A model generated the notes under the pieces. The model made no database searches, was not told the DNA's origin, and saw only the letters and a program-made list of their open reading frames with translations. Positions 46,568 through 62,235 of a stretch of 64,000 nucleotides of DNA are shown piece by piece (within the stretch, counting starts at the first letter, position 1; every line of letters begins with the position of its first letter). Both the position numbers and the translations under genes were made by a program. This DNA is from a candidate division FCPU426 bacterium (GTDB lineage: Bacteria; Oederibacteriota; Muellerivitia; Muellerivitales; Muellerivitaceae), in contig CAVYSE010000003.1 in assembly GCA_963771075.1 (NCBI GenBank), positions 352,001 to 416,000 on the forward strand, read 5' to 3'.

Positions 46568-46769
46568 AGAAAAGGACAAGAAACGCGTATTAAAGGATTT
46601 AGTAGAGCGTTTTAAGAAATTATTGCCTGATGAGAATGTTGAGGGGGACCCCTTTTGGGGGTTGATGGAAATTCGCGGAGGAAAATTAACGGGTAACTAT
46701 TATGTTATTCAGTCAGATCTACCGCACCCAAACATGGCGCTCCCTTTGTTTTTTAGAGAAACTGAGTAA
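46557..46769 (+). pseudogene. Hypothetical gene truncated by IS66
   Basis: Its stop codon (TAA) lies within the IS terminus GTAAG starting at 46766. Confidence 0.55.
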
Positions 46770-46790
46770 GCGTCCTGTCAGGCCATATGT

Positions 46791-48470
46791 TTAGTGAGGG
46801 GCAAGCATGGTAGGCGTTTTTTCGGTGGAATCTGGTCGGGCAGTCTGGAAGACCGGCGTTTCCGGGACGGGGCCGAGGACGTAGGTGGCGGGCAACAGTT
46901 CTCGGATACGGCTCATGGGGTGGGTTTTCACCCGGCTGATAATGTCGCGAAGATAAAAGTAAGGATCAATTTTGTGGCGCTTGCAGGAAGCCACCAGGCT
47001 GTAGAGGATGGCCGCCCACCCGCCGCCCGCAACGCTCCCCGCGAACAGCCAGTTCTTGCGGCCCACCGTCACACACCGAAGTGCCCTCTCCGCCGCGTTG
47101 TTGTCGATGTTCAAATCGCCGTCTTCTACATACCGGTTCAAGGCGTCCCATTGGTTAAACACATAAGTCAAGGCCTCACCGAAGGGGCTCTTGGGTAAGG
47201 TCACGAGCGCCTGGGTGTCCAACCACTCTTTGAAGGCCTCCAAGATCGGTTTGGATTTCTCGGCCCTCAAGGCCTGCCACCCGGCGGTATCCAGCGTCTT
47301 TTCGTCCGCCTCCCACTCCACCTCGTAGAGTTTTCGAATGAAAGCCATGGCCATCTTGGAGCGGCTCTTGTCCGACACCTTGGCTTCGTTGAATTTCCTT
47401 CGGGCGTGCGCCCAACAAGCCACTTCCACCGCCTTTTCGGGCTTGAACATGCAGTCATACCCCGTGTAGGCATCCGCCTGGAGATACCCCTTCCAATCGC
47501 CCAGGAAAGCCTTCGGGTGCTCCGCCCGCCTATTTTCCGTGAACTCATAGACAATGTTCGCGTGGGTCTCGTCGCCCACGTAGGTCCACAGGCGGCCTGT
47601 CTTCGCCTTACTATGTTTATCTTCCTCTTCGTCCCTTTGCCCCACCGATCCCGGGGGCTCTGAGGCTCCCGGCGGGGCGCCGTCGTCCAGGTATGGCACC
47701 GGCGTATCGTCCGTGTGGATCACCTTGGATTCCAGCACGTCCTGTTTCATGGCCTCGTACAAGGGTTCCAACAATCCCGCCACTGCTCCCACCCAGCCAC
47801 ACAAGGTGGAACGGCTTATTTCCAGGCCCCCTCTTTCAAATATTTCCGCTTGGCGGTAAAGCGGCAGGTGATCTGCGTATTTCGCCGTTACCACCTGGGC
47901 CAGCAACCCAGGACCCGCGATGCAACGCTCGATGGGCCTCACCGGCGCCTCACTGGTCACCGGGGCATTCTTACAGCAGGAACAGGCCCATTTTTCCAGG
48001 ACATCCTGGCGGATATAGGTGACCGCCGGGATGTGTTCCAGGGTGTTTCGCACGTCCTCGCCCATCTTCGTCAGGGGTTTTTGGCATTCCAGGCAGGTCT
48101 TCTTGTCCTCGCTCAGGGGGTGTTCCACCCGCAAGATGGGCAGGTTCTCGGGCGGCTTGTTTCGCCCATGGCCCTTCTTCCTCGTGTAGGTCAGCGTTTC
48201 GGTTTCTTCTTGGGGCTTTTGGGCTGCGGTCATCTGCCCCAACCGTTCTTCGATCTCTTTGAGAAAAATCGACAGTTGGGCATCGTTGAATTGTTCGGAC
48301 TTGCGACCGTACCGACTTTTTGCGGCCAAGTAGAGTTGGTGCCGCAGGCGTTCAATGGTTTCACCCTGATCCTTCAAGGTTTCGAAAAGACTTAGGACGA
48401 GGGATTTTAGGGAAGCGGAATCATCAGGAAGGGTTTTTAAATCGGGAAGAGTAAGAGGAGAGGTTGGCAT
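46791..48470 (-). CDS. tnpC: IS66 transposase TnpC
   Basis: KYADHLPLYRQ, HTDDTPV, LQADAY, CWAHARRKF, DNNAAER. Confidence 0.96.
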   Translation of the reverse strand: MPTSPLTLPDLKTLPDDSASLKSLVLSLFETLKDQGETIERLRHQLYLAAKSRYGRKSEQFNDAQLSIFLKEIEERLGQMTAAQKPQEETETLTYTRKKGHGRNKPPENLPILRVEHPLSEDKKTCLECQKPLTKMGEDVRNTLEHIPAVTYIRQDVLEKWACSCCKNAPVTSEAPVRPIERCIAGPGLLAQVVTAKYADHLPLYRQAEIFERGGLEISRSTLCGWVGAVAGLLEPLYEAMKQDVLESKVIHTDDTPVPYLDDGAPPGASEPPGSVGQRDEEEDKHSKAKTGRLWTYVGDETHANIVYEFTENRRAEHPKAFLGDWKGYLQADAYTGYDCMFKPEKAVEVACWAHARRKFNEAKVSDKSRSKMAMAFIRKLYEVEWEADEKTLDTAGWQALRAEKSKPILEAFKEWLDTQALVTLPKSPFGEALTYVFNQWDALNRYVEDGDLNIDNNAAERALRCVTVGRKNWLFAGSVAGGGWAAILYSLVASCKRHKIDPYFYLRDIISRVKTHPMSRIRELLPATYVLGPVPETPVFQTARPDSTEKTPTMLAPH

Positions 48471-48528
48471 CGCTCTTTGAGACGCACCAACCTCTCCCGA
48501 AGTTTCAAACAACTTCAAAAATTCTTCA

Positions 48529-48903
48529 TCACGCCATCACCGGTTGGGGTTTGTGCGACAGGCCCAGGCTAAACCGTTTGCGCCTCTGTACTCTCGCCAG
48601 GCTGATTCCCTCGATGAGCATCGAAAGCTCCGCCTGGCTCATCTCCACGCACGTTCCTTCACCTTGGCGCATCTCGAAGGTCCCGGCTTCCAGGCGCTTG
48701 TACCACAGGCACAACCCATCCCCGCCCCAGTACAACACCTTCAGCCGGTCCCCCCGCCGGTTGCGGAACACGAACAGGTGCCCACTCAAAGGGTCTTGCC
48801 TCATCACCTCACCGGCCAGGGCCGACAGGCCGTCAAACCCCTTGCGCATGTCCGCCGCTCTCGTACACACAAATACTCGGATGCCCGCCGAGAGGGTCAG
48901 CAC
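48529..48903 (-). CDS. tnpB: IS66 accessory protein TnpB
   Basis: DMRKGFDGL, FVFRNRRGDRLKVLYW, KRLEAG. Confidence 0.96.
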   Translation of the reverse strand: MLTLSAGIRVFVCTRAADMRKGFDGLSALAGEVMRQDPLSGHLFVFRNRRGDRLKVLYWGGDGLCLWYKRLEAGTFEMRQGEGTCVEMSQAELSMLIEGISLARVQRRKRFSLGLSHKPQPVMA

Positions 48904-49232
48904 GCCTTTTCCTCCAGGGCTCGGACCAATTCAGCCAACGCCGGGGCGGGCATTTCCCGGTACAGCCTCAAAACCCGGCCGTTCAAAAGGGTCAATTCCA
49001 CAACCGGATGGGTTTCGCCACCCGCAGTCACTACTGAAACGGGCAGGAAGGCCTGGCGACCCCGAACCACAGGGCTCTGGGGACCGGCCAACCGTCTTTT
49101 CCAGGCGTAAAAGCTTGGCGGGCTGATCCGACTTTTACGGCAATAGGCCGATCCGCTCAGGCCACTACGCTTCCAGGCCCGCAAAACCTCCTCCCACCGC
49201 TTTTTATTCCGGAATTTGCTCTGCTTCGCCAT
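48897..49232 (-). CDS. tnpA: IS66 TnpA
   Basis: W..SGLS...YC......SFYAW.RRL, FLPV. Confidence 0.9.
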   Translation of the reverse strand: MAKQSKFRNKKRWEEVLRAWKRSGLSGSAYCRKSRISPPSFYAWKRRLAGPQSPVVRGRQAFLPVSVVTAGGETHPVVELTLLNGRVLRLYREMPAPALAELVRALEEKAC

Positions 49233-49243
49233 GGTTTTCCTCC

Positions 49244-50389
49244 CTAGACAAGATTGGTCTCCATGGTGGTTTCTACGGGAGGGTGGCAGGATTGGCTAGA
49301 TGGTGCAACAAGACGCTTACCCTTCAACGCAGGATGAACAATTTTCCCCTGTTCCAGGTTAAGCGCATGTTGCAAAACCGGGTCGGCTTCCAAAGCCTTC
49401 GGATAGCCCTTATTGGCGATCTTCAAGACATAGGGCAGGGTCGAGTTGGTGAGAGCGTAGGTAGATGTCATGCCCACGGCGCCAGGGATATTGGTTACGC
49501 AATAATGAACTACCCCGTGCTTCTTATAAACCGGAGCGCTGTGGGTAGTGGGGTGGGATGTTTCCACGCATCCGCCTTGGTCGATGGCCACATCCACAAT
49601 GACCGAACCAGGTTTCATGGCTTTCACCATGGCTTCGGTGACCAGCCGGGGGGCCTTGGCACCTTCCACATATACCGCCCCGATCAACAGGTCCGCATCC
49701 GCCACTTCTTCCCTTATGACCCTCCGGTTGGAAACCAGGGTGATCACGTTTTTAGGGAGTATTTCTTCCAAATGCCGTAAACGGCTGGGGTTGATATCCA
49801 GCACCGAAACCCGGGCGCCGATACCCGCCGCCACCTTGGCCGCGTTGGTGCCCACTGCCCCGCCCCCTAAAACCACCACCTTGGCGGGCTGAACCCCGGC
49901 CACCCCGCCTAAAAGGATGCCCTTACCGCCCATGGACCTTTCCAGGTATTTGGCTCCTTCTTGGATGGCCATCTTGCCCGCCACTTCGCTCATGGGGGTT
50001 AGGAGGGGGTGTTCCCCATCGGGCAAGCAGAGGGTTTCATAGGCCAGGGCGATAATGCCCGATTTGATCAGGGCGTGGGTGAGAGCCGGTGCGGCAGCCA
50101 GGTGGAAATAGCAGAAAACCAACTGCCCTTTGCGGAGGTATCGGATTTCGGAGGGCTGGGGTTCCTTAACCTTTAGGATCATCTGGGCCTGGCGGAAAAG
50201 GCTGGCCCTTTGGGGAACGATTTGGGCACCCGAATCCCGAAATTCCTTGTCCGAAAGGCCGCTTCCGGCCCCGGCGCCCTTTTCGATGAGGACCTTGTGC
50301 CCGGCCAAGGTTAGTTCCTCCACCCCGGCGGGGACGACCCCTACCCGAAACTCGTTGTCTTTGATTTCCTTCGGAACCCCGATGATCAT
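49244..50389 (-). CDS. ald: Alanine dehydrogenase; native C-terminus replaced by IS66 read-through beyond 49320
   Basis: IGVPKEIKDNEFRV, LLTPMSEVAG, GGGAVG, DVAIDQGGC, NIPGAV..TST.ALTN. Confidence 0.93.
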   Translation of the reverse strand: MIIGVPKEIKDNEFRVGVVPAGVEELTLAGHKVLIEKGAGAGSGLSDKEFRDSGAQIVPQRASLFRQAQMILKVKEPQPSEIRYLRKGQLVFCYFHLAAAPALTHALIKSGIIALAYETLCLPDGEHPLLTPMSEVAGKMAIQEGAKYLERSMGGKGILLGGVAGVQPAKVVVLGGGAVGTNAAKVAAGIGARVSVLDINPSRLRHLEEILPKNVITLVSNRRVIREEVADADLLIGAVYVEGAKAPRLVTEAMVKAMKPGSVIVDVAIDQGGCVETSHPTTHSAPVYKKHGVVHYCVTNIPGAVGMTSTYALTNSTLPYVLKIANKGYPKALEADPVLQHALNLEQGKIVHPALKGKRLVAPSSQSCHPPVETTMETNLV

Positions 50390-50530
50390 TAACGGCCCCC
50401 TACCGGCTCATGTTTGGCTATTTGATTGTAATCTTTATTCGCGACTCTGCGAAATATAGCCTGATGGACCCTCCCCCAAAACGGTAAATTTGAGAGACAC
50501 CTAAACAATCGGTACAAATCGATTTATACC

Positions 50531-50814
50531 GGTATTTATCCGGTATTTTCATGGTATTAGCCCGGTATGAATGGCGGTATTTACGGTATAAGCCCGGTAT
50601 TTGCTAGGTATTAATGGTAGTATGAATGGTATTAGCAGCGGTACAAATGGTATTTGTCCGGTATGAACCCGGTATAAATGCGGTATGAGTCGGTATTAGT
50701 GGTTGTATAAACGGTATTAGCCCCGGTATGAACGGTATGAGCTCGGTATTAATGGCGGTACAAATGGTATTAGCGACGGTATAAATGGTATTTGTACGGT
50801 ATGAATGGTTGTAC
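50531..50814. repeat. Helically phased GGTAY motif array (~27 copies, mean period ~10.7 bp)
   Basis: Motif starts at 50531,542,553,564,576,585,596,607,619,628,640,649,660,671,682,692,704,713,725,734,745,757,766,778,787,798,810 (three are degenerate at base 1). Confidence 0.85.
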
Positions 50815-50876
50815 GGACCAGTTGATTCGGTACACGGGATGTATACGGCCAGTTTGGCCCTGTATACACCCTCGGA

Positions 50877-51569
50877 TTAGCTTCTGTGGTGGCGCCCACC
50901 GTGTTTACCGCCAGGTGTCGGGCTGGGGCTAGGCTTGGCAACCGGCTGGGTAACCACTTCCTCGGTGCCGGTTTTCATCAAATCATCTCCCATAAACCCA
51001 TTAGCATCGCAAACGTGATAGTGCCCATCTTCTAAATAGACTTGGACCGTCGGGGTCTTACCTGAACCCTGCCACCACCAATAACCCCGGTTGAAATAAA
51101 GCCACCGCTCGGCAGTGGGGTCATGCCACCAAAAACGACCCTCCCGCCAGAGCACCCAATGAAAGGTGTCACCCATGCGCCAGCCATACCAATTCCGGTC
51201 CCCATCACGGTAATGGCAGTAGTTCCACGCATTGTAGGGATGCCAATAATACTTTCCCGAATGGCTGTCTTTCTGATCGATCTTGGGAACTTGCTGAACG
51301 GCGGCGGGTTCGCCCAGATTGCGCATAGACGGGCCAAGGGGCGCTGACTCTTCGTCATTGACCAGCTTCAGGGAGGTGCCATCGTTGTATTTCTTGGGGG
51401 GCTTGGGCAACCGAAAATGCGTGTTATCAGCAATCTTGTCTTGAGTCGATAGAACCAGGGGTTTGGGTAACGATGGCGTAGCTTCCACCCCAGGTAGTTG
51501 GTCGGAAGCGAAAACAATAGTTCCTATTCCCAAAAACAACATCCCCATCAATATTCGCCACACGTACAT
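50877..51569 (-). CDS. Secreted hypothetical protein with Trp/Tyr-rich repeats
   Basis: Signal peptide; YYWH, WYGW, FWW, YWWW motifs. Confidence 0.75.
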   Translation of the reverse strand: MYVWRILMGMLFLGIGTIVFASDQLPGVEATPSLPKPLVLSTQDKIADNTHFRLPKPPKKYNDGTSLKLVNDEESAPLGPSMRNLGEPAAVQQVPKIDQKDSHSGKYYWHPYNAWNYCHYRDGDRNWYGWRMGDTFHWVLWREGRFWWHDPTAERWLYFNRGYWWWQGSGKTPTVQVYLEDGHYHVCDANGFMGDDLMKTGTEEVVTQPVAKPSPSPTPGGKHGGRHHRS

Positions 51570-51677
51570 ATTTTGCCTTTATTCGGATTGTCATCTAGAC
51601 GTCCTGCAACAAGGAAAGGGTTGGGCCAAAGGGCCAAAACAAGACCCGTAAAAGGAGTATGGCACGTCTAGACACCC

Positions 51678-53836
51678 ATGAATACACCATCATCCCAAGC
51701 AACCACAGTTCAACCAATAAACCCGAAAATCGCGCCTTCCCCGAGTCGGGGGGAATGGGTGGCGTTTACCATCATCCTGCTGTTGGGCGCGGCCCTGCGC
51801 CTCTGGGATCTGGATAAGAACGGAACGGGCAACCCCTATTACGCCTCGGCCGTTCGAAGCATGCTGATGAACTGGCACAATTTCTTTTTTGTGTCCTTCG
51901 ATCCCGTAGGATTCGTGACGGTGGACAAGCCCCCGGTGTCGCTGTGGATTCAAACCGCCTTCGCCAAACTTTTCGGCTACCGGGGTTTTACCCTGATCTT
52001 TCCCCAGGTGCTGGAAGGCTTGGGCACCCTCTCCGTGGTTTATTACCTGGTTCGCAAGCGCTTCGGCGCGTTCGCCGCCTTGTTCGCGGGTCTGGTCATC
52101 GCCCTTTCCCCGGTCAGCGTGGCGGTGGACCGCTACAACAATACGGACGAGTGCCTGGTATTCGTTATGGTGCTCGCGGCCTGGGCCTTGATTCGGGCGG
52201 CTGAAACCGGAAGCCGAAAGTTTCTCTACCTAGCCCTGATATTGGTCGGGATCGGATTCAACACCAAGATGATGGCGGCCTTCGTGGCTCTTCCTGTTTT
52301 CTATCTGGTTTACCTGATTGGTTCCCCCATCACTTGGCTCCGGAAAATCTGGGTCCTCGTAACCGGAACTCTGATATTGCTGGTCGTGGCCTTGTCCTGG
52401 CCATTGGCAGTGGATTTGACACCTCCCGAACAACGCCCCTTCGTGGGAAGCACACAAGATAATTCCATGATTAGCCTGTCCCTGGGATGGAACGGATTTC
52501 AAAGACTGCTCACCCGTGGACGGCGCGGTTCCCCCCCAATGGCCGGGGAGGCAATTTCCCGGCGGCTGGCGCCGCGACCAACACCCCGCCCAACGCACCC
52601 GCCTCGGTGGGCGACACGAACCATTCGGAAGCCGCAGCCGCGTCCCAGGCCCAGGCACGCCGCCGAAACGGCGGACCCATGAACAACGGAACCCCGGGTC
52701 CCCTTCGTTTGGCGGATCGGAACATGGCAGGCCAGGTGGGTTGGTTTTTTCCCCTGGTCCTGCTGGGTTTCTGGTCGGCGGCCCGCCGAATCCGTTTGAC
52801 CTTTCCCCTGGCCCCAAGCCACCAGTCCCTCTTTTTTTGGTTGGGATGGATCTTCATCTACGGGGCAGTTTTCAGTTTCATGAAGGGGGCCATGCATCCC
52901 TATTACCTTGTCCTCATGGTTCCCGCCATCGCCGCCCTGGCGGGGATCGGCGTTCAATCGCTTTGGAACGACTACCGGGAAGGCCGAATCATCCTTCCGC
53001 TCCTGACCCTAGCTCTCACAGCTGGGTGGCAGGCCTTTATCGTGACCCAGTACCCCGATTGGAAACATCAGCTTTTGCCCATCCTGATGAGCGGGTTACT
53101 TTTATCCCTGGCCAGTCTTTTGTTGATTTCCCGTCTGGCCTCTCAAAAGCCCGCCTGGCTCCGATGGGCTCCCTCAGCCTTTGGCCTGGGGCTCTCGGCC
53201 CTTTTCTTCTGCCCCACCTTTTGGGCACTGACCCCGGTCTTGGGTTCGGGCCAATCGGTGCAAGCCGGTCCTGAGTTACTGGACCCTCGCAGCAGGGGCG
53301 GATTGTTTCCAGGGTTCGGCGTGAACTTAAACAATGCCAAGCTGGTCGATTACCTGAAAGCCCACCAGCAGGGCGAATCCTATCTTTTGGTCGCGCAAAA
53401 CAGTCAGGTCGTTGCTCCAATCATCATTGAGACCGGCGAGCCGGTGGTGGCCATCGGGGGGTTCATGGGCGGGGATCCCATTTTGACCGCCAACCAATTC
53501 GCCCAGAAGGTTCAAGACGGCCAATTCCGCTACATGCTTTTAAACGCCCCGCCTACGAACCAGAACGGCAGGGGCCCAGGAGGAAACCCCGGAGGATGGG
53601 GTGGACCGGGAAACATGGGAAGGATGGGCGGGGCCCAGGCCGAGATCGCCAAGTGGGTGCGGGAGCATGGAAAACTCGTGGATGCCGCCCTTTGGAAACC
53701 AGCTCTTCCACCGGTAATTCCCGTCGTTCAATCCCCCGCCCCCGGAGGGTTCGGCGGGCGTAGGGGAGGCATTGCCAACCTGCAACTGTATGATTTGCGT
53801 CCGGGCAAAGAGGAAAATAAAGGTTCAAAGGGTTAA
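51678..53836 (+). pseudogene. ArnT/PMT-like (GT-C) glycosyltransferase, frameshifted at the C7 run near 52531
   Basis: N-half GNPYYA, VTVDKPP, FNTKM, GWNG..RL; C-half PGPLRL, HPYY, IGGFMGGDP in another frame. Confidence 0.8.
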
Positions 53837-53845
53837 GTTAATCCA

Positions 53846-55210
53846 GTGAGTTCCAACAATCTTTTACCCCAAACAACTTTGGTATTGGATGTCGGGGAAA
53901 ACCTGGATTTCCTGCTCGCCAAACTGAATCAAGTTAATTTGGGAAATAAGCCTTCCTTCGGGCAAATACTGTTGGCTTCTCCCCCTGGACAAAAAACAAA
54001 GATTTTTGCCAAACTCCCGGAAAGCTTTAAACACCTCGAAATAGTGGAAATTCAATCGCTTCGGCTAGACCTCTTCCCTTTCCTCCATAAACCCTATCTG
54101 GCCTATTTGCCATCCGACGCCCCCTATTCACCGCCTCAAATTGATTTTGGCGCGGACCTGGAGAAGCATCCTCTTTTTATCCAACCTTGGGTTCCTTTTT
54201 TAAAAACCTCGGATTCGGAGTGGGCACGCGGGGTTTACCTGTCATTGGGTTGGATTTCCACACCCAAGCTTTTGCAGAAAATGGACTTAATAAACGGGTT
54301 CTCTCTTCGCGACCTGGAAAGATCCATCCGAAACGCCCACACGGAAATTCCCTACTTTTCCGCCTCGGCTAGCGAATCCCTCAACGGAAAACCACCCGTT
54401 CCGCAGGGCCAGCCAACACTCACAAAAGCATCCAGGGTCTTAGCCCTCGTGCCCCACTTCAATTGCGAGGAGTGGCTGGAACAATGTTTGTATTCTCTCG
54501 TCCATCAAACCCGCCTACCCGAAAACATCGTCGTTATGGACGATTGTTCAACGCATTCACCGCTAGAAATCGTAAAAAAATTTCCCTCTGTGGCTCTGTT
54601 TCGTTCACCTGAAAATGTGGGCCCCTATCGACTTTTACAATCCATGATTGATCAAACCCAATTCGACGGTTATATGTTTCAAGACTCGGACGATTGGTCG
54701 AGCCTCGATCGATTAGAATTATTGCTCCGGGAAGCGGAAACCGGATGCGCCGACTGGGTGGGTTCGCAAGAGATCGTCTATTTCTCGGATGCCATTCACA
54801 CCCTTCGATATCCCCTGATTCTAAAGGATTCCCCCGAATCGCTCATGCGCTATCCGTTTTGTTACTCGAGCAGTCTCATTTCAAGGTCGTTTTTCAAACT
54901 TTTGGGTGGTTTCGCTTCGGGCCTGCGTTTCAGCGGGGACTTTGAATTTTTTTCCCGGGCAATATTCGCGGGAAAAGTGATCAATCTCGACCGTTATTGC
55001 TATCACCGGAGAGTCCGGAAAGACTCACTCATTACATCCGAAGAAACAGGGCTCGCAAGCCTTTCACGCAAGGAAGTCGATTCTCAAATCGAGGTAAAAA
55101 AAGCGGCCAATCACGTCCTTAGGTCAAAAGGTTTTGCCCCCCTGCTGGAACCGATCAAGACAGCCCCGCCCATTCGCTTTCAGCATTTGACCGGGCCCCA
55201 ATTGATCTAG
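53846..55210 (+). CDS. Glycosyltransferase family 2
   Basis: LVPHFNCEEWL, VMDDCS, FQDSDD, SGDFEF. Confidence 0.85.
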   Translation: MSSNNLLPQTTLVLDVGENLDFLLAKLNQVNLGNKPSFGQILLASPPGQKTKIFAKLPESFKHLEIVEIQSLRLDLFPFLHKPYLAYLPSDAPYSPPQIDFGADLEKHPLFIQPWVPFLKTSDSEWARGVYLSLGWISTPKLLQKMDLINGFSLRDLERSIRNAHTEIPYFSASASESLNGKPPVPQGQPTLTKASRVLALVPHFNCEEWLEQCLYSLVHQTRLPENIVVMDDCSTHSPLEIVKKFPSVALFRSPENVGPYRLLQSMIDQTQFDGYMFQDSDDWSSLDRLELLLREAETGCADWVGSQEIVYFSDAIHTLRYPLILKDSPESLMRYPFCYSSSLISRSFFKLLGGFASGLRFSGDFEFFSRAIFAGKVINLDRYCYHRRVRKDSLITSEETGLASLSRKEVDSQIEVKKAANHVLRSKGFAPLLEPIKTAPPIRFQHLTGPQLI

Positions 55211-55257
55211 TCTTCCAGCCTCATTAAAAACATGTTCGCTTGAAGCACCTATTCTTT

Positions 55258-56361
55258 TTATCTGGCATGCCGGTTTCGAAATCCGTCCATGAACTCCAAA
55301 AGTTGGTTTACGTCTTCCTCCGTTACCGAGTTATAGAGGGATGCCCTTAACCCGCCCAGGGATCGATGCCCTTCCAGACCATAAAAACCGGCTCGGGAAG
55401 CTTCTTCCAGGAACGTCTTATCCATCTCGGGACTCGGCAGGCGAAAAACCACATTCATCTTCGACCGGTCTTTCTTTGCGCCATGGACACGGAAGAAATC
55501 GGGATGCCGGTCAAGAAGATCATAGAGAGACTGGGCTTTTTTCTCGTTCAAAGCCGCCATTTTCTCCAAACCCCCGATACGGTCTTTTAACCAGCGGGCA
55601 ACCAGCAGGGTGACATAAATCGCGAAAACAGGCGGGGTGTTGTAAATGGACCCCATTTTCACATGGTTGCGGTAATCGAGCATGCTGGGCAAGGAATCCG
55701 GGGAACCCTTTAAGAGGTCCTCGTGGAGGATCACTAGTGTCATCCCCGCGGGCCCCAGGTTTTTTTGGGCATGGGCGTAAACGAGGCTGAAGTCGCGAAT
55801 TTCGAAGGGATAACTTAAAAAGTCGGAGGACATGTCGCAAACGCGCGGAACGCTCTTGGCCCCGGGCAAATAGTGAAACTGCAGGCCTTCAACCGTTTCA
55901 TTGGAAACGTAGTGGAAATAAGCGGCCTGGGGGTCGTAGGCAAGCTCTTTTTCTTCCGGCAGGCGGGTATAACCGCTTCCCTCGCCGTCAAAGATCACCC
56001 GTACCGGGCCCTCCAGGCGCGCATCGGGGATGGACTTGGCGCTCCAGTAACCCGTCTTCAGGTACTCGGCGGTCTTTCCTTTTCCCCGCAGAAGCAGCAT
56101 GGGGATCATGGAAAACTGGAGGGTGCTTCCCCCTTGGAGCTGAAGCACCTGGTAGTCGGGAGGAATATTGAGGAGGGACCGGAAGACCGCTTCCGATTCA
56201 TTGAGAATGGCCTTGAAATAGTCCGAACGGTGGCTGATACCCAGGATGGACTGGCTGGTTCCAGGGGCCTGAAGGATAGCCTCGCTGGCTTGTTCCAGCA
56301 CCGCCCGGGGAAGCGCGCCGGGGCCGCCCGAAAAATTGAGACTTGTGTGACTGGCCATCAT
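55258..56361 (-). CDS. serC: Phosphoserine aminotransferase
   Basis: NFSGGP, ISHRS, QGG..LQF, NETVEG, DMSSD, AQKNLGPAG, NTPP, GHRSLGGLRASLYN. Confidence 0.96.
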   Translation of the reverse strand: MMASHTSLNFSGGPGALPRAVLEQASEAILQAPGTSQSILGISHRSDYFKAILNESEAVFRSLLNIPPDYQVLQLQGGSTLQFSMIPMLLLRGKGKTAEYLKTGYWSAKSIPDARLEGPVRVIFDGEGSGYTRLPEEKELAYDPQAAYFHYVSNETVEGLQFHYLPGAKSVPRVCDMSSDFLSYPFEIRDFSLVYAHAQKNLGPAGMTLVILHEDLLKGSPDSLPSMLDYRNHVKMGSIYNTPPVFAIYVTLLVARWLKDRIGGLEKMAALNEKKAQSLYDLLDRHPDFFRVHGAKKDRSKMNVVFRLPSPEMDKTFLEEASRAGFYGLEGHRSLGGLRASLYNSVTEEDVNQLLEFMDGFRNRHAR

Positions 56362-57371
56362 GGCACCCCTATCTTTTTTTTCTTGGAAGCCTCCAGGACA
56401 TCTTCCAGCAGTTTGCGACTAAACCGGCCGTCACGAAATGGAAAAAGAGTGGCATTGGGGGTGAAGGTGAACTCGCTGAAATAGACCCCGTCGGGCAAAT
56501 CGTACAGATCCACCCGAACGAAATCGAAGGGGCCGGAAAGTTCGGAAGCTATTTGGAGCATCTCCCCCCAATGGGCGGGTTTTTCGGGCAAAGGATCGGG
56601 CAAGGGGAACTGGTTCGGGATCGGGATGTGACGGTGGTCCGGCACGTTGAAGAGGGCCTGGCGGTGGTCGGCGAAGCGCCCCTCGTCGTACTGGCAAAAA
56701 AGTACCTTTCCTCGGGATGAATAGAAACGGAAATCGGGCGGGGGGTGGTACCACAGGCCGTCTTTTCCGGAAGGGATGGGGGAAGGCAGGCACTCTTCCA
56801 CCAGGATCTTGGGACGCAAACCCCGATACTGTCCCTCGTATTCGTTCCGGAAGTAATCGCGACGGGCGAAGCGGAACATTTCGAGTGTCGGTTGAACGAC
56901 GACTTGGACGTTCGCCCCGCCCAGGAAAATCACTCCTCCCGAGGTATGGGTCGGCTTGGCCACCGCGTTTTTCCCGACGAAAGGATAGATGAACTTTCCC
57001 ACCTGCTCCAGGGGGGTGTCAGGATAGAGGGTCAGCACCGAGAGGGTGCGGGCGATTTGAATCCTCGGAGAGAGGGAAACCGCAATGAGCTTGGCGCTTT
57101 CTTTGTCGACGCAAGTCTTTTCAAATGGGGTCCAAGGGCCGGTCATACGTTGGAAGATATAATCTTCGAAGGTGGCCTGGGCCGAGAAGGGGTCGATCGG
57201 CAGTCTTTGGTGCTTTCGTTTGAAATTCGAGCGGGCCAAGAGGCGAGTGGCTCCCGGGTCACCCCGAAGGGCAAAAAACAACAAAACCCGCTGGACCCAT
57301 CGTTTCAAATTGAAAATCCGTTCATCTGGATATGGAGATTTTTTTATTACCTTCCACAGGATTAGACGCAC
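56358..57371 (-). CDS. TupA-like ATP-grasp protein
   Basis: DK, KPTHTSG, PKILVEE, FDFVRVDLY, YFSEFTFTP. Confidence 0.88.
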   Translation of the reverse strand: MRLILWKVIKKSPYPDERIFNLKRWVQRVLLFFALRGDPGATRLLARSNFKRKHQRLPIDPFSAQATFEDYIFQRMTGPWTPFEKTCVDKESAKLIAVSLSPRIQIARTLSVLTLYPDTPLEQVGKFIYPFVGKNAVAKPTHTSGGVIFLGGANVQVVVQPTLEMFRFARRDYFRNEYEGQYRGLRPKILVEECLPSPIPSGKDGLWYHPPPDFRFYSSRGKVLFCQYDEGRFADHRQALFNVPDHRHIPIPNQFPLPDPLPEKPAHWGEMLQIASELSGPFDFVRVDLYDLPDGVYFSEFTFTPNATLFPFRDGRFSRKLLEDVLEASKKKKIGVP

Positions 57372-57400
57372 GACTTAGAAAAGGGTGCCACCCTGACGGT

Positions 57401-58117
57401 TTATTCCACGATCTCGAATTTTCCAATAACCTGTTCTTCAGTCAGCGCGTCATAGTGCCACCATTCGTGGCGCAACTGGCGAAAACCCGCGCCCACCATG
57501 GCGCTTCTTAAGATCATCCGATGGTCGATTTGGATCTGAGTCAACTTCCCTTCTTTTAAAAGCCGGCTTTCCAGTTGAGGTTCGGAAAGAGGAGTGAAAC
57601 CGTCAAAAGGAGCGCCCATGTCGACTAATTTTCCCTGGGGGTCCAGAAGCCCGATATCCAGGGCGAAACCATAGTTATGCATGGAACCCTTGTCCGGATC
57701 GGCGACATATTTTTGATGGGACGTTCCCTTGACCACGGCCCACAGTTTTCGTTGGACCGAACGGGGCCGTAGCGCGTCAAACACGATGAACTTGTAGCCC
57801 GGGTTGTTTTTACGGAGAGTCTCAATGGCCTTACGCAACTTTTCGGCCGTAATTTTATGAATGTAGCATTTGTTGTAGGGCCCGTAGAGGTTCTTGCGGG
57901 TGAAATTGTCGGTGGTTCCATACTTAAGATTCACGGTCACGCCTTGCCAATGGGTGATCTCGACGAAATTCGGGCTGGCGGCCAGGTTTTTCATGGAATC
58001 CTCGATGGAGTGGGTTTGGGATAGGGCCGATAGCGGGAGCAGAAAAAAGCCGAACAGCAGGAAAAGGCCCAGGGAACGTTTCTTCAAGGGATCACGTCCC
58101 GGGACCTGGCATTTCAA
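57401..58117 (-). CDS. ddpX: D-Ala-D-Ala dipeptidase (M15D, VanX/DdpX family)
   Basis: YGT.DNF, FDALRP, SMHNYG.ALD, DMGAPFD, EWWHY. Confidence 0.9.
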   Translation of the reverse strand: MKCQVPGRDPLKKRSLGLFLLFGFFLLPLSALSQTHSIEDSMKNLAASPNFVEITHWQGVTVNLKYGTTDNFTRKNLYGPYNKCYIHKITAEKLRKAIETLRKNNPGYKFIVFDALRPRSVQRKLWAVVKGTSHQKYVADPDKGSMHNYGFALDIGLLDPQGKLVDMGAPFDGFTPLSEPQLESRLLKEGKLTQIQIDHRMILRSAMVGAGFRQLRHEWWHYDALTEEQVIGKFEIVE

Positions 58118-58608
58118 GACTTCTTCTTGGGCATCTCATCTTCTTTGCCTTTTTCCGGTGTCGTATAGAGGCCGTTTTCGTATTTGAGGATCGTCGTGTT
58201 CTTGGGAACGTTGTGGTATTCGAGGTTGATGTCCTCATCCGTGAGCGTCACCTCGTAATAATAGTCCAGCTTCTTGTTGAACCCCAAAATCAGCTTGCGA
58301 ATAAAGGTGAAGTCCTCCTTCACCGCGTCCGCGTCCTCCAAGCTCCCGATCAAGGTAACATCCAGCGTTTCCTCGTCCGGGTTATAAATGATGGTAACCC
58401 GAATCGGCTCGATTTTTGAATTAGGATATTTTGTCTGGGGCTTCAACAGCATGGCCTGGGTGGTCGCCGTCACCATGGTCTGGAGATAACCGGCCACCCT
58501 TTCCCCCACGGGAACGCTGTCCCAGGCCCCCAAATTTTCATTCGCGGCTTGGCAGGTCACGGCCCATAGGAGGGTCCCTAAAATAATGCAGGATTGAATG
58601 AGTCTCAT
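58114..58608 (-). CDS. Secreted hypothetical protein
   Basis: Signal peptide; overlaps both neighbours. Confidence 0.75.
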   Translation of the reverse strand: MRLIQSCIILGTLLWAVTCQAANENLGAWDSVPVGERVAGYLQTMVTATTQAMLLKPQTKYPNSKIEPIRVTIIYNPDEETLDVTLIGSLEDADAVKEDFTFIRKLILGFNKKLDYYYEVTLTDEDINLEYHNVPKNTTILKYENGLYTTPEKGKEDEMPKKKS

Positions 58609-58874
58609 GGAGTTTTGATCGGTTCCGAGACAGGCGTTGGGCTCGTTTCAGGTTCGGGAGTTTTGGCGGATTCTTCCGAAATAACCTTTCCCTCTTTTAA
58701 ACGCAAAACAATTTTTCCCGTTTTGGTGTTGAGATAGGCCAGCGAAAGATCGTTTTCTTTCAATTCGATCCCGTAATCATGGTTGATCTTTTTCCCCATG
58801 GAAAGCAGGGTCCTCTGGATCTTTTCCAGTAGGGCCTGGACGTATTTGGAATCACCCTGGTTTCCGATCACGGA
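58605..58874 (-). pseudogene. 3' half of a paralogue of 58114-58608, 5' half removed at the first 37-bp repeat
   Basis: SVIGNQGD...KKINHDYGIELKENDLSLAYLN aligns with TLIGSLED...KKLDYYYEVTLTDEDINLEYHN; homology stops at 58874. Confidence 0.75.
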
Positions 58875-58928
58875 GTTGCACACCATCCTTTTTGGGAGGG
58901 CCATGTGCAGGCAAAAATTACATGATTG

Positions 58929-59039
58929 TCAACCTTTTAACAAAGCCAATTGATATATTTTATCCCGGACTTTCCAACAGACTTTCTCCCGGACTTTCCA
59001 CCAGACTTTCCCCCAGACTTTATCTCGAATGTTTTTCAT
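58929..59039 (-). CDS. 36-aa phage-like ORF with KV(W/R/C)x tetrapeptide repeats (spacer 1)
   Basis: MKNIRDKVWGKVWWKVREKVCWKVRDKIYQLALLKG; ATGA overlap with upstream ORF. Confidence 0.55.
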   Translation of the reverse strand: MKNIRDKVWGKVWWKVREKVCWKVRDKIYQLALLKG

Positions 59040-59188
59040 TGTATTTTATCTCGAATATCAACTATTATTATGCGCCCTATTGGAAGCCAAAGATTAGATG
59101 CACAATCAAAACCAGCCTGGGAACGTGTTGTTTTTACCACAAATTTTGCCCATGCGTCAAAACAAAGTTTATGCAAAATATTATTCAT
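59036..59188 (-). CDS. 50-aa hypothetical ORF (spacer 1)
   Basis: Start overlaps the end of 59181-59705; stop overlaps next start. Confidence 0.5.
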   Translation of the reverse strand: MNNILHKLCFDAWAKFVVKTTRSQAGFDCASNLWLPIGRIIIVDIRDKIQ

Positions 59189-59705
59189 CTTCGAAAGCCA
59201 ATTCTTTCCGAGATTGCGCCACATTCTTGCTTTCAAGGTAATTGCTTATAAGGAATCCAGTTGCGAGGTCTGTGAAAATATTAGCCTTATCCCCCAGAAT
59301 GGTGTCTGTTACTTCCATCCCTATTAAAGAATACAGAAGCATAGACCAAAATCCATATTTCTTGGCGCAAGGCTTAGGCGTGAACCACCCTTTTCTTTTC
59401 AAAAACATGTCTACGGTGATGTGTAATTGATTCTTGTATTTGGAATGTTTTTTATAGAGACTTTGCTTGATATGCCTCCAATCACCAGCATTATCAAGAC
59501 TTTCTGTGTTCCAAGTCTCATTTTTCTCAATTTCTCCACTTAAGGCATAGTTTTCAAGGATATCGTAGAAAAAACGGTTTATTGGCCCGTTAAACATGAT
59601 TTTTTTAGTGTAATAGTTTTTCATGATAACGTGAGTATAGAATTTTTTGGTGAGAGAGGACATACCTTCTTTGGTAAGGTCGAAGTCTTCAAGTGTTGGT
59701 GCCAT
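59181..59705 (-). CDS. AT-rich hypothetical protein (spacer 1)
   Basis: 174 aa, strong AAGGAGG RBS. Confidence 0.7.
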   Translation of the reverse strand: MAPTLEDFDLTKEGMSSLTKKFYTHVIMKNYYTKKIMFNGPINRFFYDILENYALSGEIEKNETWNTESLDNAGDWRHIKQSLYKKHSKYKNQLHITVDMFLKRKGWFTPKPCAKKYGFWSMLLYSLIGMEVTDTILGDKANIFTDLATGFLISNYLESKNVAQSRKELAFEDE

Positions 59706-59847
59706 TGCTAATGCCTCCTTAAGTTTTCAAGTAAACGCAGTGTCCGAAAGTAAAGCGAGAATATGTGTTCTTTATTCTTATTCACTTTATCACGTATCCT
59801 GCAAAAATACGTTGCACACCATCCTTTTTGGGAGGGCCATGTGCAGG

Positions 59848-60105
59848 CTTAAATCAGTGGGATGGGGTGCTGTGAGCGGGGTTCTGAGTCACTACGGTGG
59901 AAAACTGTTCGATAAATATTTGAAGAATCCGTTAAGCTCCGCTGGAAGAACTTTGGGGAGAGAATTTAACACTGGGACGACAGCCGTTGAAAAACGGGCA
60001 TTTACCATTGGAGCTAAAAAAGCTGTGGCGGAAACGGGACACGAAGTGGGGGGAGCTTTAATTTCGTCTGCGCCATCCCTTTTGGATAAAACACCCAAAA
60101 AATAA
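59848..60105 (+). pseudogene. C-terminal gene fragment resembling an Rhs/polymorphic toxin tip (spacer 2)
   Basis: Gly/Ala-rich VGWGAVSGVLS...; begins at the repeat edge without its own start. Confidence 0.45.
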
Positions 60106-60201
60106 ACCGACGAATCCATGAGCTGCAACCACGCCGAACGTGGGTAATTGAAAGTTGGTTTCATTCTTGAAAAGTGTGAATCATGGTTGAGGGAGGGGAA
60201 A

Positions 60202-60600
60202 ATGATATTTTTAAAATATGCCATTGTAGTTTTGGTTGCCTTGGCGGTGAGCGCGGCCGAATTTGGTTTGTTCTATGTGCAGGGATTGGCTCAAAGAAGA
60301 AAGAATGCTATTTATAGAAGACTAATGATCGTAGTACTTGGTTTAGGATCCTGGGCCGGACTTATGTTGGGTGCTCCTATTTGCGATTTTTTGGGGATTC
60401 AAGATTCGAATAGCAGGCTTTATTTTTTTTGTTTTTGGTCGGTGCCAGTGCTGCTTGGAATGGGTTTTGGAGCGTACTACGTTTTGTGTGTCATGAAGCC
60501 ATTTGCACATCGTGGATTGTGTCATGAATGTGGATTTGTGAATGAGAAGGAAGTCAGGGTTTGCGGGAGATGTGGGCATAAGATGCCTAAAGAAAAATAG
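60202..60600 (+). CDS. Small 3-TM membrane protein with C-terminal zinc ribbon (spacer 2)
   Basis: GGAGG RBS; CHECG...CGRCG. Confidence 0.7.
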   Translation: MIFLKYAIVVLVALAVSAAEFGLFYVQGLAQRRKNAIYRRLMIVVLGLGSWAGLMLGAPICDFLGIQDSNSRLYFFCFWSVPVLLGMGFGAYYVLCVMKPFAHRGLCHECGFVNEKEVRVCGRCGHKMPKEK

Positions 60601-60648
60601 GAACTCTTATGGTTGCACACCATCCTTTTTGGGAGGGCCATGTGCAGG

Positions 60649-61207
60649 TTCCAAATCGCCGAACTGGTTGAAGCAAAACAGGGGATGGTAACAGGTACAG
60701 CCAAAGTAACCGTTGTACAAGGAACCTTCCTGATCCCCGTAGGTCTCGCTCACTGAGCTATCCATGTCGAGGATGATCTGTTGTATGGGCTTTTTCTCAT
60801 GGACTCCATCGATCCATTGGCCCGATAAGTCAATTAAGCCGGTCAAATTCTTCGACTGGGTGAGGACCTCCGTCTCGAAACGACCCATCTGGCTGGTGGA
60901 GGCGGCCTGTTTTTCCCTGGCCCGTCCTCCGATCACATGCCGCATCGCAGGATCGACACTCAGGCGTTCTGCGTCGTTGGTATCCTCATAACCGGCCAAG
61001 CGGCTGAATACCGACTGGCGAAGAAGCGCCGTCATCGTGTGTTGCGTATTCTTACCGGTCCGCCGATCCCAAAGGATGTTTTCTGTTCTGTCAGTCAAAC
61101 CAAAAGCTTCGTCGAGTTCGCGATAGGGAATCAACCCGCCATCGGAAGTGACCTTCGCACCATGGAACTCCAACTTGAGGCCAGGATCAAAAACCACCCG
61201 AAGAGCG
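60649..61207 (-). pseudogene. Internal fragment of an IS1380-family transposase (spacer 3)
   Basis: ALRVVFDPGLKLEFHGAKVTSDGGL..YRELD, LLRQSVFSRLAGYEDTNDAERL..DP, LDMDSS.SETYGDQEG..YNGYF.CTCYHPLF; cut by a repeat at both ends. Confidence 0.88.
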
Positions 61208-61244
61208 GTTGCACACCATCCTTTTTGGGAGGGCCATGTGCAGG

Positions 61245-61348
61245 AAAATTCTTTCGATATCCTTAAATTCGTGCGTATACCCAAAATCACCAAGATGGTA
61301 AACACTATCACCCTTCTTGACCATTTTATTCCAATTTTCTATTAAAAG
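61245..61348 (-). pseudogene. Internal fragment of a calcineurin-like phosphoesterase (spacer 4)
   Basis: LLIENWNKMVKKGDSVYHLGDF motif. Confidence 0.75.
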
Positions 61349-61520
61349 GTTGCACACCATCCTTTTTGGGAGGGCCATGTGCAGGGCAGGCATTCCAGCG
61401 TCGCCGTCTGGCACTCCTGCAATGTGCCCAAGCTCGTCGAGGTGCTCGACTCTTTCAGGTACACCGGCGCGTTGGTGGTGTTGCACACCATCCTTTTTGC
61501 GACAGGCATGTGCAGGATCA

Positions 61521-61928
61521 TCATTTCGAGGCTATCAATCGACTCGAAAAGCAACCAACGATATATATAACAGCGGCTATTAGTAGGGAGGTAGTAAGAA
61601 AAATTTTAAAAAAAGTAAAACTTTCAGGATCATTGAACCCCTGCGAAGAAATAAGCAAACAATATAAAAAGTAACTCAAACATTGAACAATCACAGCGAA
61701 GCAAACAACGGTCATTAACCCCACAAAAAAATGAATGTTTTTTCCAAAAATTAATTTTTGAAGGAGTGGATACGACAACCCTTCAAAAAAACATAAACCA
61801 TACATGAAATTTTCAGTGAGAAAGATTGTCGAGAAGAAATTTCTACCAAAGCAATATGCCAAGCTAACAAGTATGCAAAAAGAACCAAGAAAAAAAACGT
61901 TAAATAAAATCAATTTGCTCGTTCTCAT
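61521..61928 (-). CDS. AT-rich multi-TM membrane protein, immunity-like (spacer 6)
   Basis: 135 aa hydrophobic ORF; ATGA overlap with the upstream fragment. Confidence 0.6.
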   Translation of the reverse strand: MRTSKLILFNVFFLGSFCILVSLAYCFGRNFFSTIFLTENFMYGLCFFEGLSYPLLQKLIFGKNIHFFVGLMTVVCFAVIVQCLSYFLYCLLISSQGFNDPESFTFFKIFLTTSLLIAAVIYIVGCFSSRLIASK

Positions 61929-62198
61929 TGATCAACATGAGGCGTAATTGCCGTCCCTTTGTTATCATTCGTGAAATTCTTATACTGTTCGTTCGGATTG
62001 GTATAAGGACCTTTAACCCCATATAGCGATCCAAGCGGTGGTTGCGCTGACTGAGGGAAAGTAGCTGACACCTGTCCCGCATTAGCAATTTTGCCAGCTA
62101 GATCAGCACAATTTTCCGAAGTACATCCACCATTTTTATCGGTTTGCGCGCTCACACTGTAAGGCTTATTAAAATTTTTATTACCGAACGACTTCATT
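61925..62198 (-). pseudogene. C-terminal gene fragment resembling an Rhs toxin tip (spacer 6)
   Basis: PYS...NCADLA..IA.AG...PN..Y pattern; begins at the repeat edge. Confidence 0.45.
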
Positions 62199-62235
62199 GT
62201 TGCACACCATCCTTTTTGGGAGGGCCATGTGCAGG

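What the first reader, a model, noticed from the sequence alone, without database searches (positions are those of the whole stretch)
60649..61207. Spacer 3 is a doubly truncated IS1380 transposase fragment
Seen: the whole 559-bp spacer is one open frame of IS1380-type transposase. It runs from just after the N-terminus to HPLFCFNQFGDLE, with no IS ends, start or stop, and both cut points coincide with repeat edges. It therefore did not transpose in and is not a gene cassette. Inference: it was captured as an arbitrary fragment of mobile DNA, like a giant protospacer. It is the best spacer for defining cut-site or PAM-like rules.
Basis: partly seen in the sequence, partly recalled or inferred. 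Interest (0 to 1): 0.75.

Follow-up and report, generated by a model that had tools for sequence, protein, structure and literature searches.

The report
Cas1-Cas2 array captures kilobase DNA fragments
A 559-base piece from the middle of a jumping gene that is also intact in the same genome sits exactly between two 37-base repeats, likely pasted there by a CRISPR-type Cas1-Cas2 enzyme pair that would store DNA of tens to thousands of bases instead of the usual 35 or so, with no PAM signal at the mapped cut points.

Summary
Confirmed. Window 60649-61207 equals nt 21-579 of an IS1380 transposase gene that is intact elsewhere in this genome (100% to two copies, one mismatch to a third). Both ends abut identical 37-bp repeats with 0-1 nt overlap, and the repeat is not part of the IS.

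The repeat belongs to a cas1-cas2-leader-repeat module on another contig. Relatives carry the same module with spacers of 30 bp to 14 kb (median 1.6 kb, n=64), holding housekeeping genes, IS pieces and DNA identical to other genera's chromosomes.

At 28 junctions with a near-exact source I found no PAM and no microhomology. Across 214 junctions both spacer ends share a weak internal bias: position 3 is rarely G (9/214), position 4 rarely C, position 5 often T. Spacer 3 fits this bias poorly, so it cannot define the rule alone.

Best reading: a Cas1-Cas2 integrase without length control captures arbitrary DNA; spacer 3 is by-catch, not immunity. The enzyme link is inferred, and no read bridges these two junctions. 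The scan already reported this system in Patescibacteria. Added here: source-mapped cut sites, the end bias and cross-genus capture. Not found in the papers searched.

The parts
60649..61207 (-). Spacer 3: internal fragment (nt 21-579) of the host IS1380 transposase gene, no start, stop or IS ends
60612..60648 (-). 37-bp repeat left of spacer 3 (strand given in the cas1-cas2 reading direction)
61208..61244 (-). 37-bp repeat right of spacer 3, identical to the left one
58875..58911 (-). 37-bp repeat, left end of the array; it cuts off the 5' part of the ORF ending at 58605
   Evidence: a contig of run X3 runs through 58875 without the repeat
58912..59810 (.). Spacer 1, 899 bp, 37% GC, one complete 174-aa ORF of no known family (59181-59705, minus)
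59811..59847 (-). 37-bp repeat
59848..60611 (.). Spacer 2, 764 bp: 3' end of a cut gene plus a complete small membrane/zinc-ribbon ORF; absent elsewhere in the host, pieces present without the repeat in peat runs
61245..61348 (.). Spacer 4, 104 bp, 32% GC, no source found
61349..61385 (-). 37-bp repeat
61386..61479 (.). Spacer 5, 94 bp, 63% GC, no source found
61480..61516 (-). Variant repeat (4 differences), the type found beside cas2 in G014; possibly brought in inside a larger captured piece
61517..62198 (.). Spacer 6, 682 bp, 37% GC: 3' end of a cut gene plus a complete 135-aa hydrophobic ORF
62199..62235 (-). 37-bp repeat, right end of the array; not followed by the leader seen beside cas2

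Best explanation
The 559-bp segment is an exact internal piece of an IS1380 element that is intact elsewhere in this genome, and it was most likely inserted by the Cas1-Cas2 pair encoded on contig C1, which likely duplicates the 37-bp repeat around DNA fragments of almost any length. Shown: the source, the clean junctions, the cas1-cas2-leader-repeat layout, the spacer lengths, the absence of PAM and microhomology, and a weak symmetric bias just inside both ends. Inferred from CRISPR and casposon chemistry: a linear fragment (from DNA uptake, transfer from kin or a chromosome break) offers two 3' ends; Cas1 active sites join them to the two borders of the leader-side repeat; gap filling copies the repeat; nothing fixes the length. 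Inferred role: the module hoards DNA, mostly chromosomal DNA of the same family, and pieces with whole genes may be kept by selection. Spacer 3 encodes no usable transposase and is likely neutral by-catch of a multi-copy IS.
For: cas1 (346 aa, TIGR00287 241.7 bits; E172/H232/E247 present and kept in 120, 121 and 121 of 121 aligned sequences) and a divergent cas2 (PADLOC Cas2b E 1.5e-8; Cas2 structures are the top fold matches) end about 22 bp before a copy of the repeat at G000:C1. In 31 family genomes the repeat is in 9 and the 96-100% identical Cas1 in 5, all among those 9, and in 0 of the other 22. Cas1 relatives at 57-71% identity have their own related 37-mer just after cas2, with GCT directly before it in 10 of 11 loci judged; 4 of those 10 loci show two or more repeats 140-4007 bp apart. 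In 8 of 10 leader-linked arrays the next repeat is the same variant as the leader repeat (read). 64 spacers span 30-14100 bp, median 1589. 28 source-mapped junctions: overlap 0 nt in 21, 1 nt in 6, 2 nt in 1; no flank position stands out (family-wise p at least 0.21). 214 junctions: position 3 G 9 (P 3e-14), A 99 (P 3e-8); position 4 C 18 (P 7e-6); position 5 T 97 (P 2e-7); seen at each end separately. 0 of 8 repeats with both flanks sourced join contiguous DNA.
Against: No activity was tested. The window's array has no leader or cas gene beside it, and none of the 6 leader-linked repeats in G000 is the exact variant that flanks spacer 3. 4 of 9 repeat-bearing genomes lack the Cas1 with this query, one of them with 13 repeats (G002, 90% complete). 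2 of 10 leader-linked arrays break the same-variant pattern. The end bias is weak in the 33 Patescibacteria-type junctions (position 3 G 3 of 33, no bias at position 4) and could come from the nuclease that made the fragments. No run bridges spacer 3's junctions. The sign of selection for whole genes is mild: ends in long open frames 44 of 110 against 52% in GC-matched controls (p 0.01), but 67 of 110 against 68% with a shorter frame (p 0.10).
Confidence: 0.8

Rival explanations
1. The array is an immune memory and spacer 3 is a giant guide against the IS1380 element or mobile DNA in general, used by an effector acting in trans.
For: Cas1-Cas2 and a CRISPR-like repeat are present; several source-mapped spacers are IS pieces; the IS is active, with 100% identical copies in G004 and G044; IS sequence is present in one RNA run laid.
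Against: The host keeps three copies and one end of the IS. No Cas12f/TnpB (PF07282) and no RAMP (PF03787) match in G000. No PAM. Spacers carry housekeeping genes and cas1 itself. The window's spacers have no match in 50,697 phage records. IS pieces are over-represented among mapped sources simply because they are multi-copy.
Confidence: 0.07
2. The 37-mer is a site for another recombinase (such as the serine recombinase proposed for this genome's palindrome cassette arrays) or a mini mobile element that inserts twice in a target and moves the piece between its copies.
For: The repeat is palindromic (z -2.4 as single-stranded DNA), dispersed at 30 places in G000, and the genome has 76 matches to a second, 30-bp palindrome.
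Against: Sources share no core with the repeat; 0 of 8 testable repeats are simple insertions into contiguous DNA; repeat and Cas1 co-occur and co-vary across 57-100% protein identity.
Confidence: 0.07
3. A whole IS1380 transposed into an ordinary or decaying CRISPR array and was later trimmed by deletions.
For: The IS is active and multi-copy; whole IS insertions do occur inside some spacers.
Against: It needs two deletions ending exactly at repeat borders without microhomology while both repeats stay perfect; 57 of 64 spacers are 200 bp or longer, so long pieces are the rule.
Confidence: 0.03
4. Spacer 3 is an assembly chimera of a multi-copy IS and the repeat.
For: The IS sits at two contig ends in this assembly; no public run laid bridges the junctions.
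Against: Repeat and IS share 0-1 nt at the junctions, so there is no shared word for an assembler to jump on; the same kind of junction is mapped in five other genome assemblies.
Confidence: 0.03

Closest known systems
CRISPR adaptation module (Cas1-Cas2, leader, repeat array); PMC4869251 passages, PMC6977970 passages
   Same: cas1-cas2 next to a 37-nt repeat with a conserved leader end; unrelated pieces between direct repeats; repeat apparently duplicated at each gain; self DNA can be taken.
   Different: Spacers 30 bp to 14 kb (97% of CRISPR spacers are 29-43 nt, PMC4869251); no PAM; no effector beside the module; leader only about 22 bp and overlapping the end of cas2; Cas2 divergent (below Pfam's cut-off); arrays span tens of kb and repeats are scattered.
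Casposons (Cas1-family casposase); PMC5137440 and PMC6977970, passages read
   Same: A Cas1 homolog joins two ends of a long DNA to a fixed site and duplicates the target; tandem casposons separated by the duplication are described in Methanosarcina.
   Different: Casposase needs the element's terminal inverted repeats, works without Cas2, makes a 14-15 bp duplication and moves its own element; here ends are arbitrary, cas2 is present and the duplication is 37 bp.
Integrons and CALINs (my own knowledge; no paper read here)
   Same: Rows of accessory DNA separated by a short palindromic site; some units carry one complete gene.
   Different: Units here are cut mid-gene, sources carry no att site, and the linked enzyme is Cas1, not IntI.
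IS1380 family (PF13701, NF033539)
   Same: The spacer is part of a genuine IS1380 transposase gene; the intact element is about 1.7 kb with terminal inverted repeats.
   Different: The spacer lacks both ends and codons 194-449, so it is cargo, not an element.

Membership tests
CRISPR array with Cas1-Cas2 adaptation module | Near-identical direct repeats of 24-37 nt | tested here: met
   37 nt; 6 of 7 window copies identical
CRISPR array with Cas1-Cas2 adaptation module | Spacers of uniform short length (97% are 29-43 nt, PMC4869251) | tested here: not met
   64 spacers, 5 at or under 75 bp, 41 at or over 1 kb
CRISPR array with Cas1-Cas2 adaptation module | cas1 with catalytic E/H/E and cas2 beside the repeat | tested here: met
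   G000:C1 and relatives; not beside the window's own array
CRISPR array with Cas1-Cas2 adaptation module | Leader end motif and duplication of the leader-side repeat | tested here: inconclusive
   GCT before the first repeat in 10 of 11 loci; next repeat same variant in 8 of 10 arrays; order of gains not observed
CRISPR array with Cas1-Cas2 adaptation module | PAM beside the source (DNA-targeting types) | tested here: not met
   28 junctions, no enriched flank position
CRISPR-Cas immune system | Effector and crRNA-processing genes for this repeat | tested here: inconclusive
   PF07282 and PF03787 absent from G000; neighbours at C1 are gltB and a spacer; Cas6, Cas9, Cas12a and Cas13 families were not searched; a second cas1 with a separate 44-repeat array lies on C3
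CRISPR-Cas immune system | Array transcribed and cut into guides | not testable with these tools
   RNA runs are contigs; the one laid covers the IS and other arrays' repeats only
Casposon | Terminal inverted repeats at the ends of the inserted DNA | tested here: not met
   spacer ends are arbitrary source sequence
Casposon | Cas1-solo with family B polymerase, 14-15 bp duplication | tested here: not met
   cas2 follows cas1 and the duplicated unit is 37 bp; polymerase not searched for
Integron cassette array | Units are whole genes carrying their own att site | tested here: not met
   mid-gene cuts, no site in the sources
IS1380 element | IS1380 transposase sequence | tested here: met
IS1380 element | Complete gene with terminal inverted repeats | tested here: not met
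   met by the C8 copy, not by the spacer

The most novel reading that the evidence does not exclude
A mobile, effector-free Cas1-Cas2 module is a natural gene-capture machine: it writes any linear DNA up to tens of kilobases into one programmable 37-bp site without PAM, homology or donor ends, moves chromosomal genes between genera, copies itself, and so is a third route to integron-like gene libraries and a candidate tool for large-DNA insertion and recording.
Probability: 0.4. Interest if true: 0.92.

Novelty: new variant of a known kind. Interest (0 to 1): 0.76.

Why it matters
The fixed short spacer is held to be what separates CRISPR integrases from casposases (PMC6977970 argues that Cas2 binding favoured single short spacers over two transposon ends). 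A cas1-cas2 module whose inserts run from 30 bp to many kb would show that Cas2 need not fix the length, and makes that model testable. Spacer 3 and 26 other mapped junctions give the substrate rule to test: no PAM, no homology, a weak preference 3-5 bases inside each end. If active, the enzyme is a two-gene, site-specific integrase for unmodified long DNA. It also documents chromosomal DNA passing between genera of one family and being fixed at these repeats.

Tried and rejected
PAM and microhomology at spacer 3 and pooled junctions: none (one search used 26 junctions at 93.5% identity or more after dropping two, one search used 28 of 29 after dropping one whose repeat end is degenerate and abuts an IS end). 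Repeat as part of the IS: rejected. Rfam: only chance-level hits. Phage records: no match; plasmid records: the 10 rows shown of 157 match only the IS1380 part. Viral contigs: 1 match to the repeat start, not examined. Sources of spacers 1, 4, 5, 6: none in the host or in 30 family genomes, but only 9 candidates per genome were scored. The 42 spacers of the second (type I-E-like, label recalled) array match nothing held outside their own locus. Single-sequence fold of Cas2 was unusable (pLDDT 38); the 10-sequence alignment gave 74.7. Contig-end overlaps do not link the window's array to a leader: C3's end overlaps the starts of both C12 and C8 through repeated DNA. PADLOC: no defence family among 14 spacer or flank ORFs. 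Runs with a small share that I did not lay (X8-X14, X16-X24) are no evidence. No complex prediction was run, as Cas1-Cas2 is a textbook pair. Literature: 8 searches showed no paper on kilobase spacers beside cas1-cas2; subscription journals are mostly not held. 10.1101/2024.03.08.584096 (passages) describes ordinary Patescibacteria arrays.

Full report
Observation. Seven copies of a 37-bp repeat start at 58875, 59811, 60612, 61208, 61349, 61480 and 62199 (0.01 expected by chance). They enclose pieces of 899, 764, 559, 104, 94 and 682 bp with 32-63% GC. Spacer 3 (60649-61207) is a stop-free frame of 186 codons on the minus strand and matches IS1380 transposase in Pfam and NCBIfam.

Source of spacer 3. 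The window lies at G000:C3:352001-416000. The same 559 bp occur three more times in G000, inside a 1.7-kb IS1380 with terminal inverted repeats: C8 (complete, 449-aa transposase), C7 and C12 (both at contig ends). The spacer is nt 21-579 of the gene, identical to C8 and C7 and one base from C12. In the source the flanks read GCCCG before the left cut and TCTTT after the right cut, against GCAGG and GTTGC in the array, so overlap is 1 and 0 nt. The repeat is not part of the IS. Identical IS copies are in G004 and G044, two other genera, so the donor may be the host's own copy or DNA from kin; I cannot tell which.

The repeat's enzyme. The repeat occurs at 30 places in G000. At C1 a cas1 (346 aa) and a 111-aa ORF end about 22 bp before a copy, which is followed by a 3477-bp piece holding a 5'-cut dnaX and a cut membrane gene, then a second copy. 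Cas1 passes TIGR00287 and keeps E172, H232 and E247. The small ORF is a divergent Cas2: all 10 aligned members hit Pfam Cas2, the window genome's below the cut-off, PADLOC Cas2b gives E 1.5e-8, and the predicted fold matches Cas2 structures first. Five more repeats in G000 keep the leader and a stump of cas2. Among 31 family genomes, 9 have the repeat and 5 have this Cas1 at 96-100% identity; all 5 are among the 9. Kin are not independent and four repeat-bearing genomes lack the gene with this query. The closest named Cas1 relatives (62-71%) are titled Patescibacteria. They have related 37-mers right after cas2, preceded by GCT in 10 of 11 loci judged, and 4 of 10 show repeats 140-4007 bp apart; the rest show one repeat, end at a contig edge or were unclear.

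What is captured. 64 distinct spacers from G000, five relatives and two metagenome contigs run from 30 to 14100 bp, median 1589; gaps of about 25 kb occur in G004. Of 97 frames scanned (chosen from the longer frames), hits include dnaX, queA, tgt, norB, ZnuABC, Nramp, RHS repeats and several transposases; about 45 had no family. Exact sources: a 783-bp spacer of G001 is a copy of its own C77; a 7247-bp spacer of G001 equals window 50693-57939 at 99.96%; 7723 of 7805 bp of a G044 spacer equal G004 chromosome at 100%; a G044 spacer is a 5'-cut cas1 plus cas2 and leader. Mis-binning could mimic the G001 case, whose contig is only 8.4 kb; the G044 case lies in a 420-kb contig. In G044 the two repeats around the 7.8-kb spacer are the G000-type variant inside an array of another variant, which suggests that pieces of arrays are themselves recaptured; the variant repeat at 61480 may have the same origin.

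Cut rule. For 28 junctions with a source matching from the first base (97% or more over 60 nt), overlap with the repeat is 0 nt in 21, 1 in 6 and 2 in 1, as random joins would give, and no flank position is enriched on either side. Some of these sources are themselves other spacers. Inside the ends, over 214 distinct non-leader junctions read inward from the repeat, position 3 is G in 9 and A in 99, position 4 is C in 18, position 5 is T in 97, and positions 10-12 lean to C; both ends show it (G at position 3: 6 of 117 and 3 of 97). No near-duplicates were found among the 212 checked. Twelve junctions added after the pattern was first seen agree. The 33 Patescibacteria-type junctions show only a hint. 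Spacer 3's ends (TTCCA, CGCTC) avoid G at position 3 but rank at the 13th and 32nd percentile.

Mechanism. By established CRISPR chemistry (PMC6977970, PMC5137440; passages read) Cas1 joins two 3' ends to opposite borders of the leader-side repeat and repair duplicates it. Perfect flanking repeats, clean junctions, a symmetric end bias and same-variant neighbours in 8 of 10 leader-linked arrays fit this. A mini-element or second recombinase would leave contiguous flanks or a shared core; 0 of 8 testable repeats do. Why length is free is unknown: the DNA may loop out of a Cas1-Cas2 complex, or two Cas1 dimers may hold the ends separately as casposase does. G000 has a ComEC gene, so uptake is a possible supply. 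Spacer 3 lacks codons 194-449 and cannot give a working transposase (inference). An open frame 61311-60607 runs through spacer 4, both repeats and spacer 3; I take it as chance.

Function. Immunity is unlikely: the IS persists, no PAM, no Cas12f/TnpB or RAMP match in G000, though other effector families were not searched. Spacer ends fall in long open frames somewhat less often than controls (44 of 110 against 52%, p 0.01; not significant with shorter frames), a weak hint that whole-gene captures are kept. The module is mobile: in G004, G014 and all three G044 copies, cas1 starts about 45 bp after the 30-bp palindrome that bounds this family's cassette arrays.

Limits. No activity was tested. 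The window's array has no linked leader. No contig of 8 runs bridged spacer 3's junctions, although pieces of spacer 2 and of the left flank occur in peat and permafrost runs, some continuing without the repeat.

Novelty. Eight literature searches found no description. For PMC6977970, PMC5137440, PMC4869251, PMC5294841 and 10.1101/2024.03.08.584096 I read passages; all other papers were seen as listings only, and no supplements were read. The scan's own notes already report this layout in Patescibacteria (read after I found the Cas1 link); a look-up for junction or PAM analysis returned nothing. It works like a CRISPR adaptation module and like a casposase but fails membership of both on tested features. 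Verdict: real, a new variant of Cas1-Cas2 acquisition; interest 0.76.

Noticed in passing
G004:C1, G014:C5, G044:C3/C15/C16, about 45 bp upstream of cas1 (L081-L084, L017): cas1-cas2 starts right after the 30-bp palindrome that bounds this family's cassette arrays, so the module seems to travel as a cassette of that second system. In G000 and G001 it sits beside gltB instead.
   Followed up: partly
window 46763-58499 (G000:C3:398763-410499): An 11.7-kb block starting at the end of an IS66-like element (label recalled from its three-ORF layout) is 99.9% identical to G014:C14, another genus, and stops mid-gene there without a repeat. Parts of this block were captured at repeats in G001 (50693-57939) and G044 (from 50594).
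   Followed up: partly
window 58605-58875: The gene left of the first repeat is cut at the repeat; a 2237-nt contig of run X3 (depth 17) continues through 58875 without it. The left flank is thus itself a captured end or a chromosome break joined to the array.
   Followed up: partly
G000:C8:90519: A lone repeat joins a 1964-bp copy of C12:16203-18163 to a 274-bp copy of C16:60024-60297. The radC-bearing C12 segment is also cut at repeats in G002 and G001.
   Followed up: partly
G044:C3:48634-102028: Eleven identical same-strand repeats over 53 kb downstream of cas1-cas2, one spacer being a cut copy of cas1-cas2-leader.
   Followed up: partly
window 59848-60105 and 61925-62198: Spacers 2 and 6 each hold the 3' end of a cut gene followed by a small hydrophobic ORF, a layout that recalls RHS toxin tip plus immunity gene (recalled; no family hit).
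   Followed up: no
window 50500-50813: Degenerate short-unit tandem repeat (GGTAT-rich); two captures in relatives begin inside it.
   Followed up: no
G000:C3:181838-186761: A separate ordinary CRISPR array (44 repeats, 31-36 bp spacers) with its own cas1.
   Followed up: partly
L096 (viral contig): One viral contig holds the first 19 bases of the repeat.
   Followed up: no
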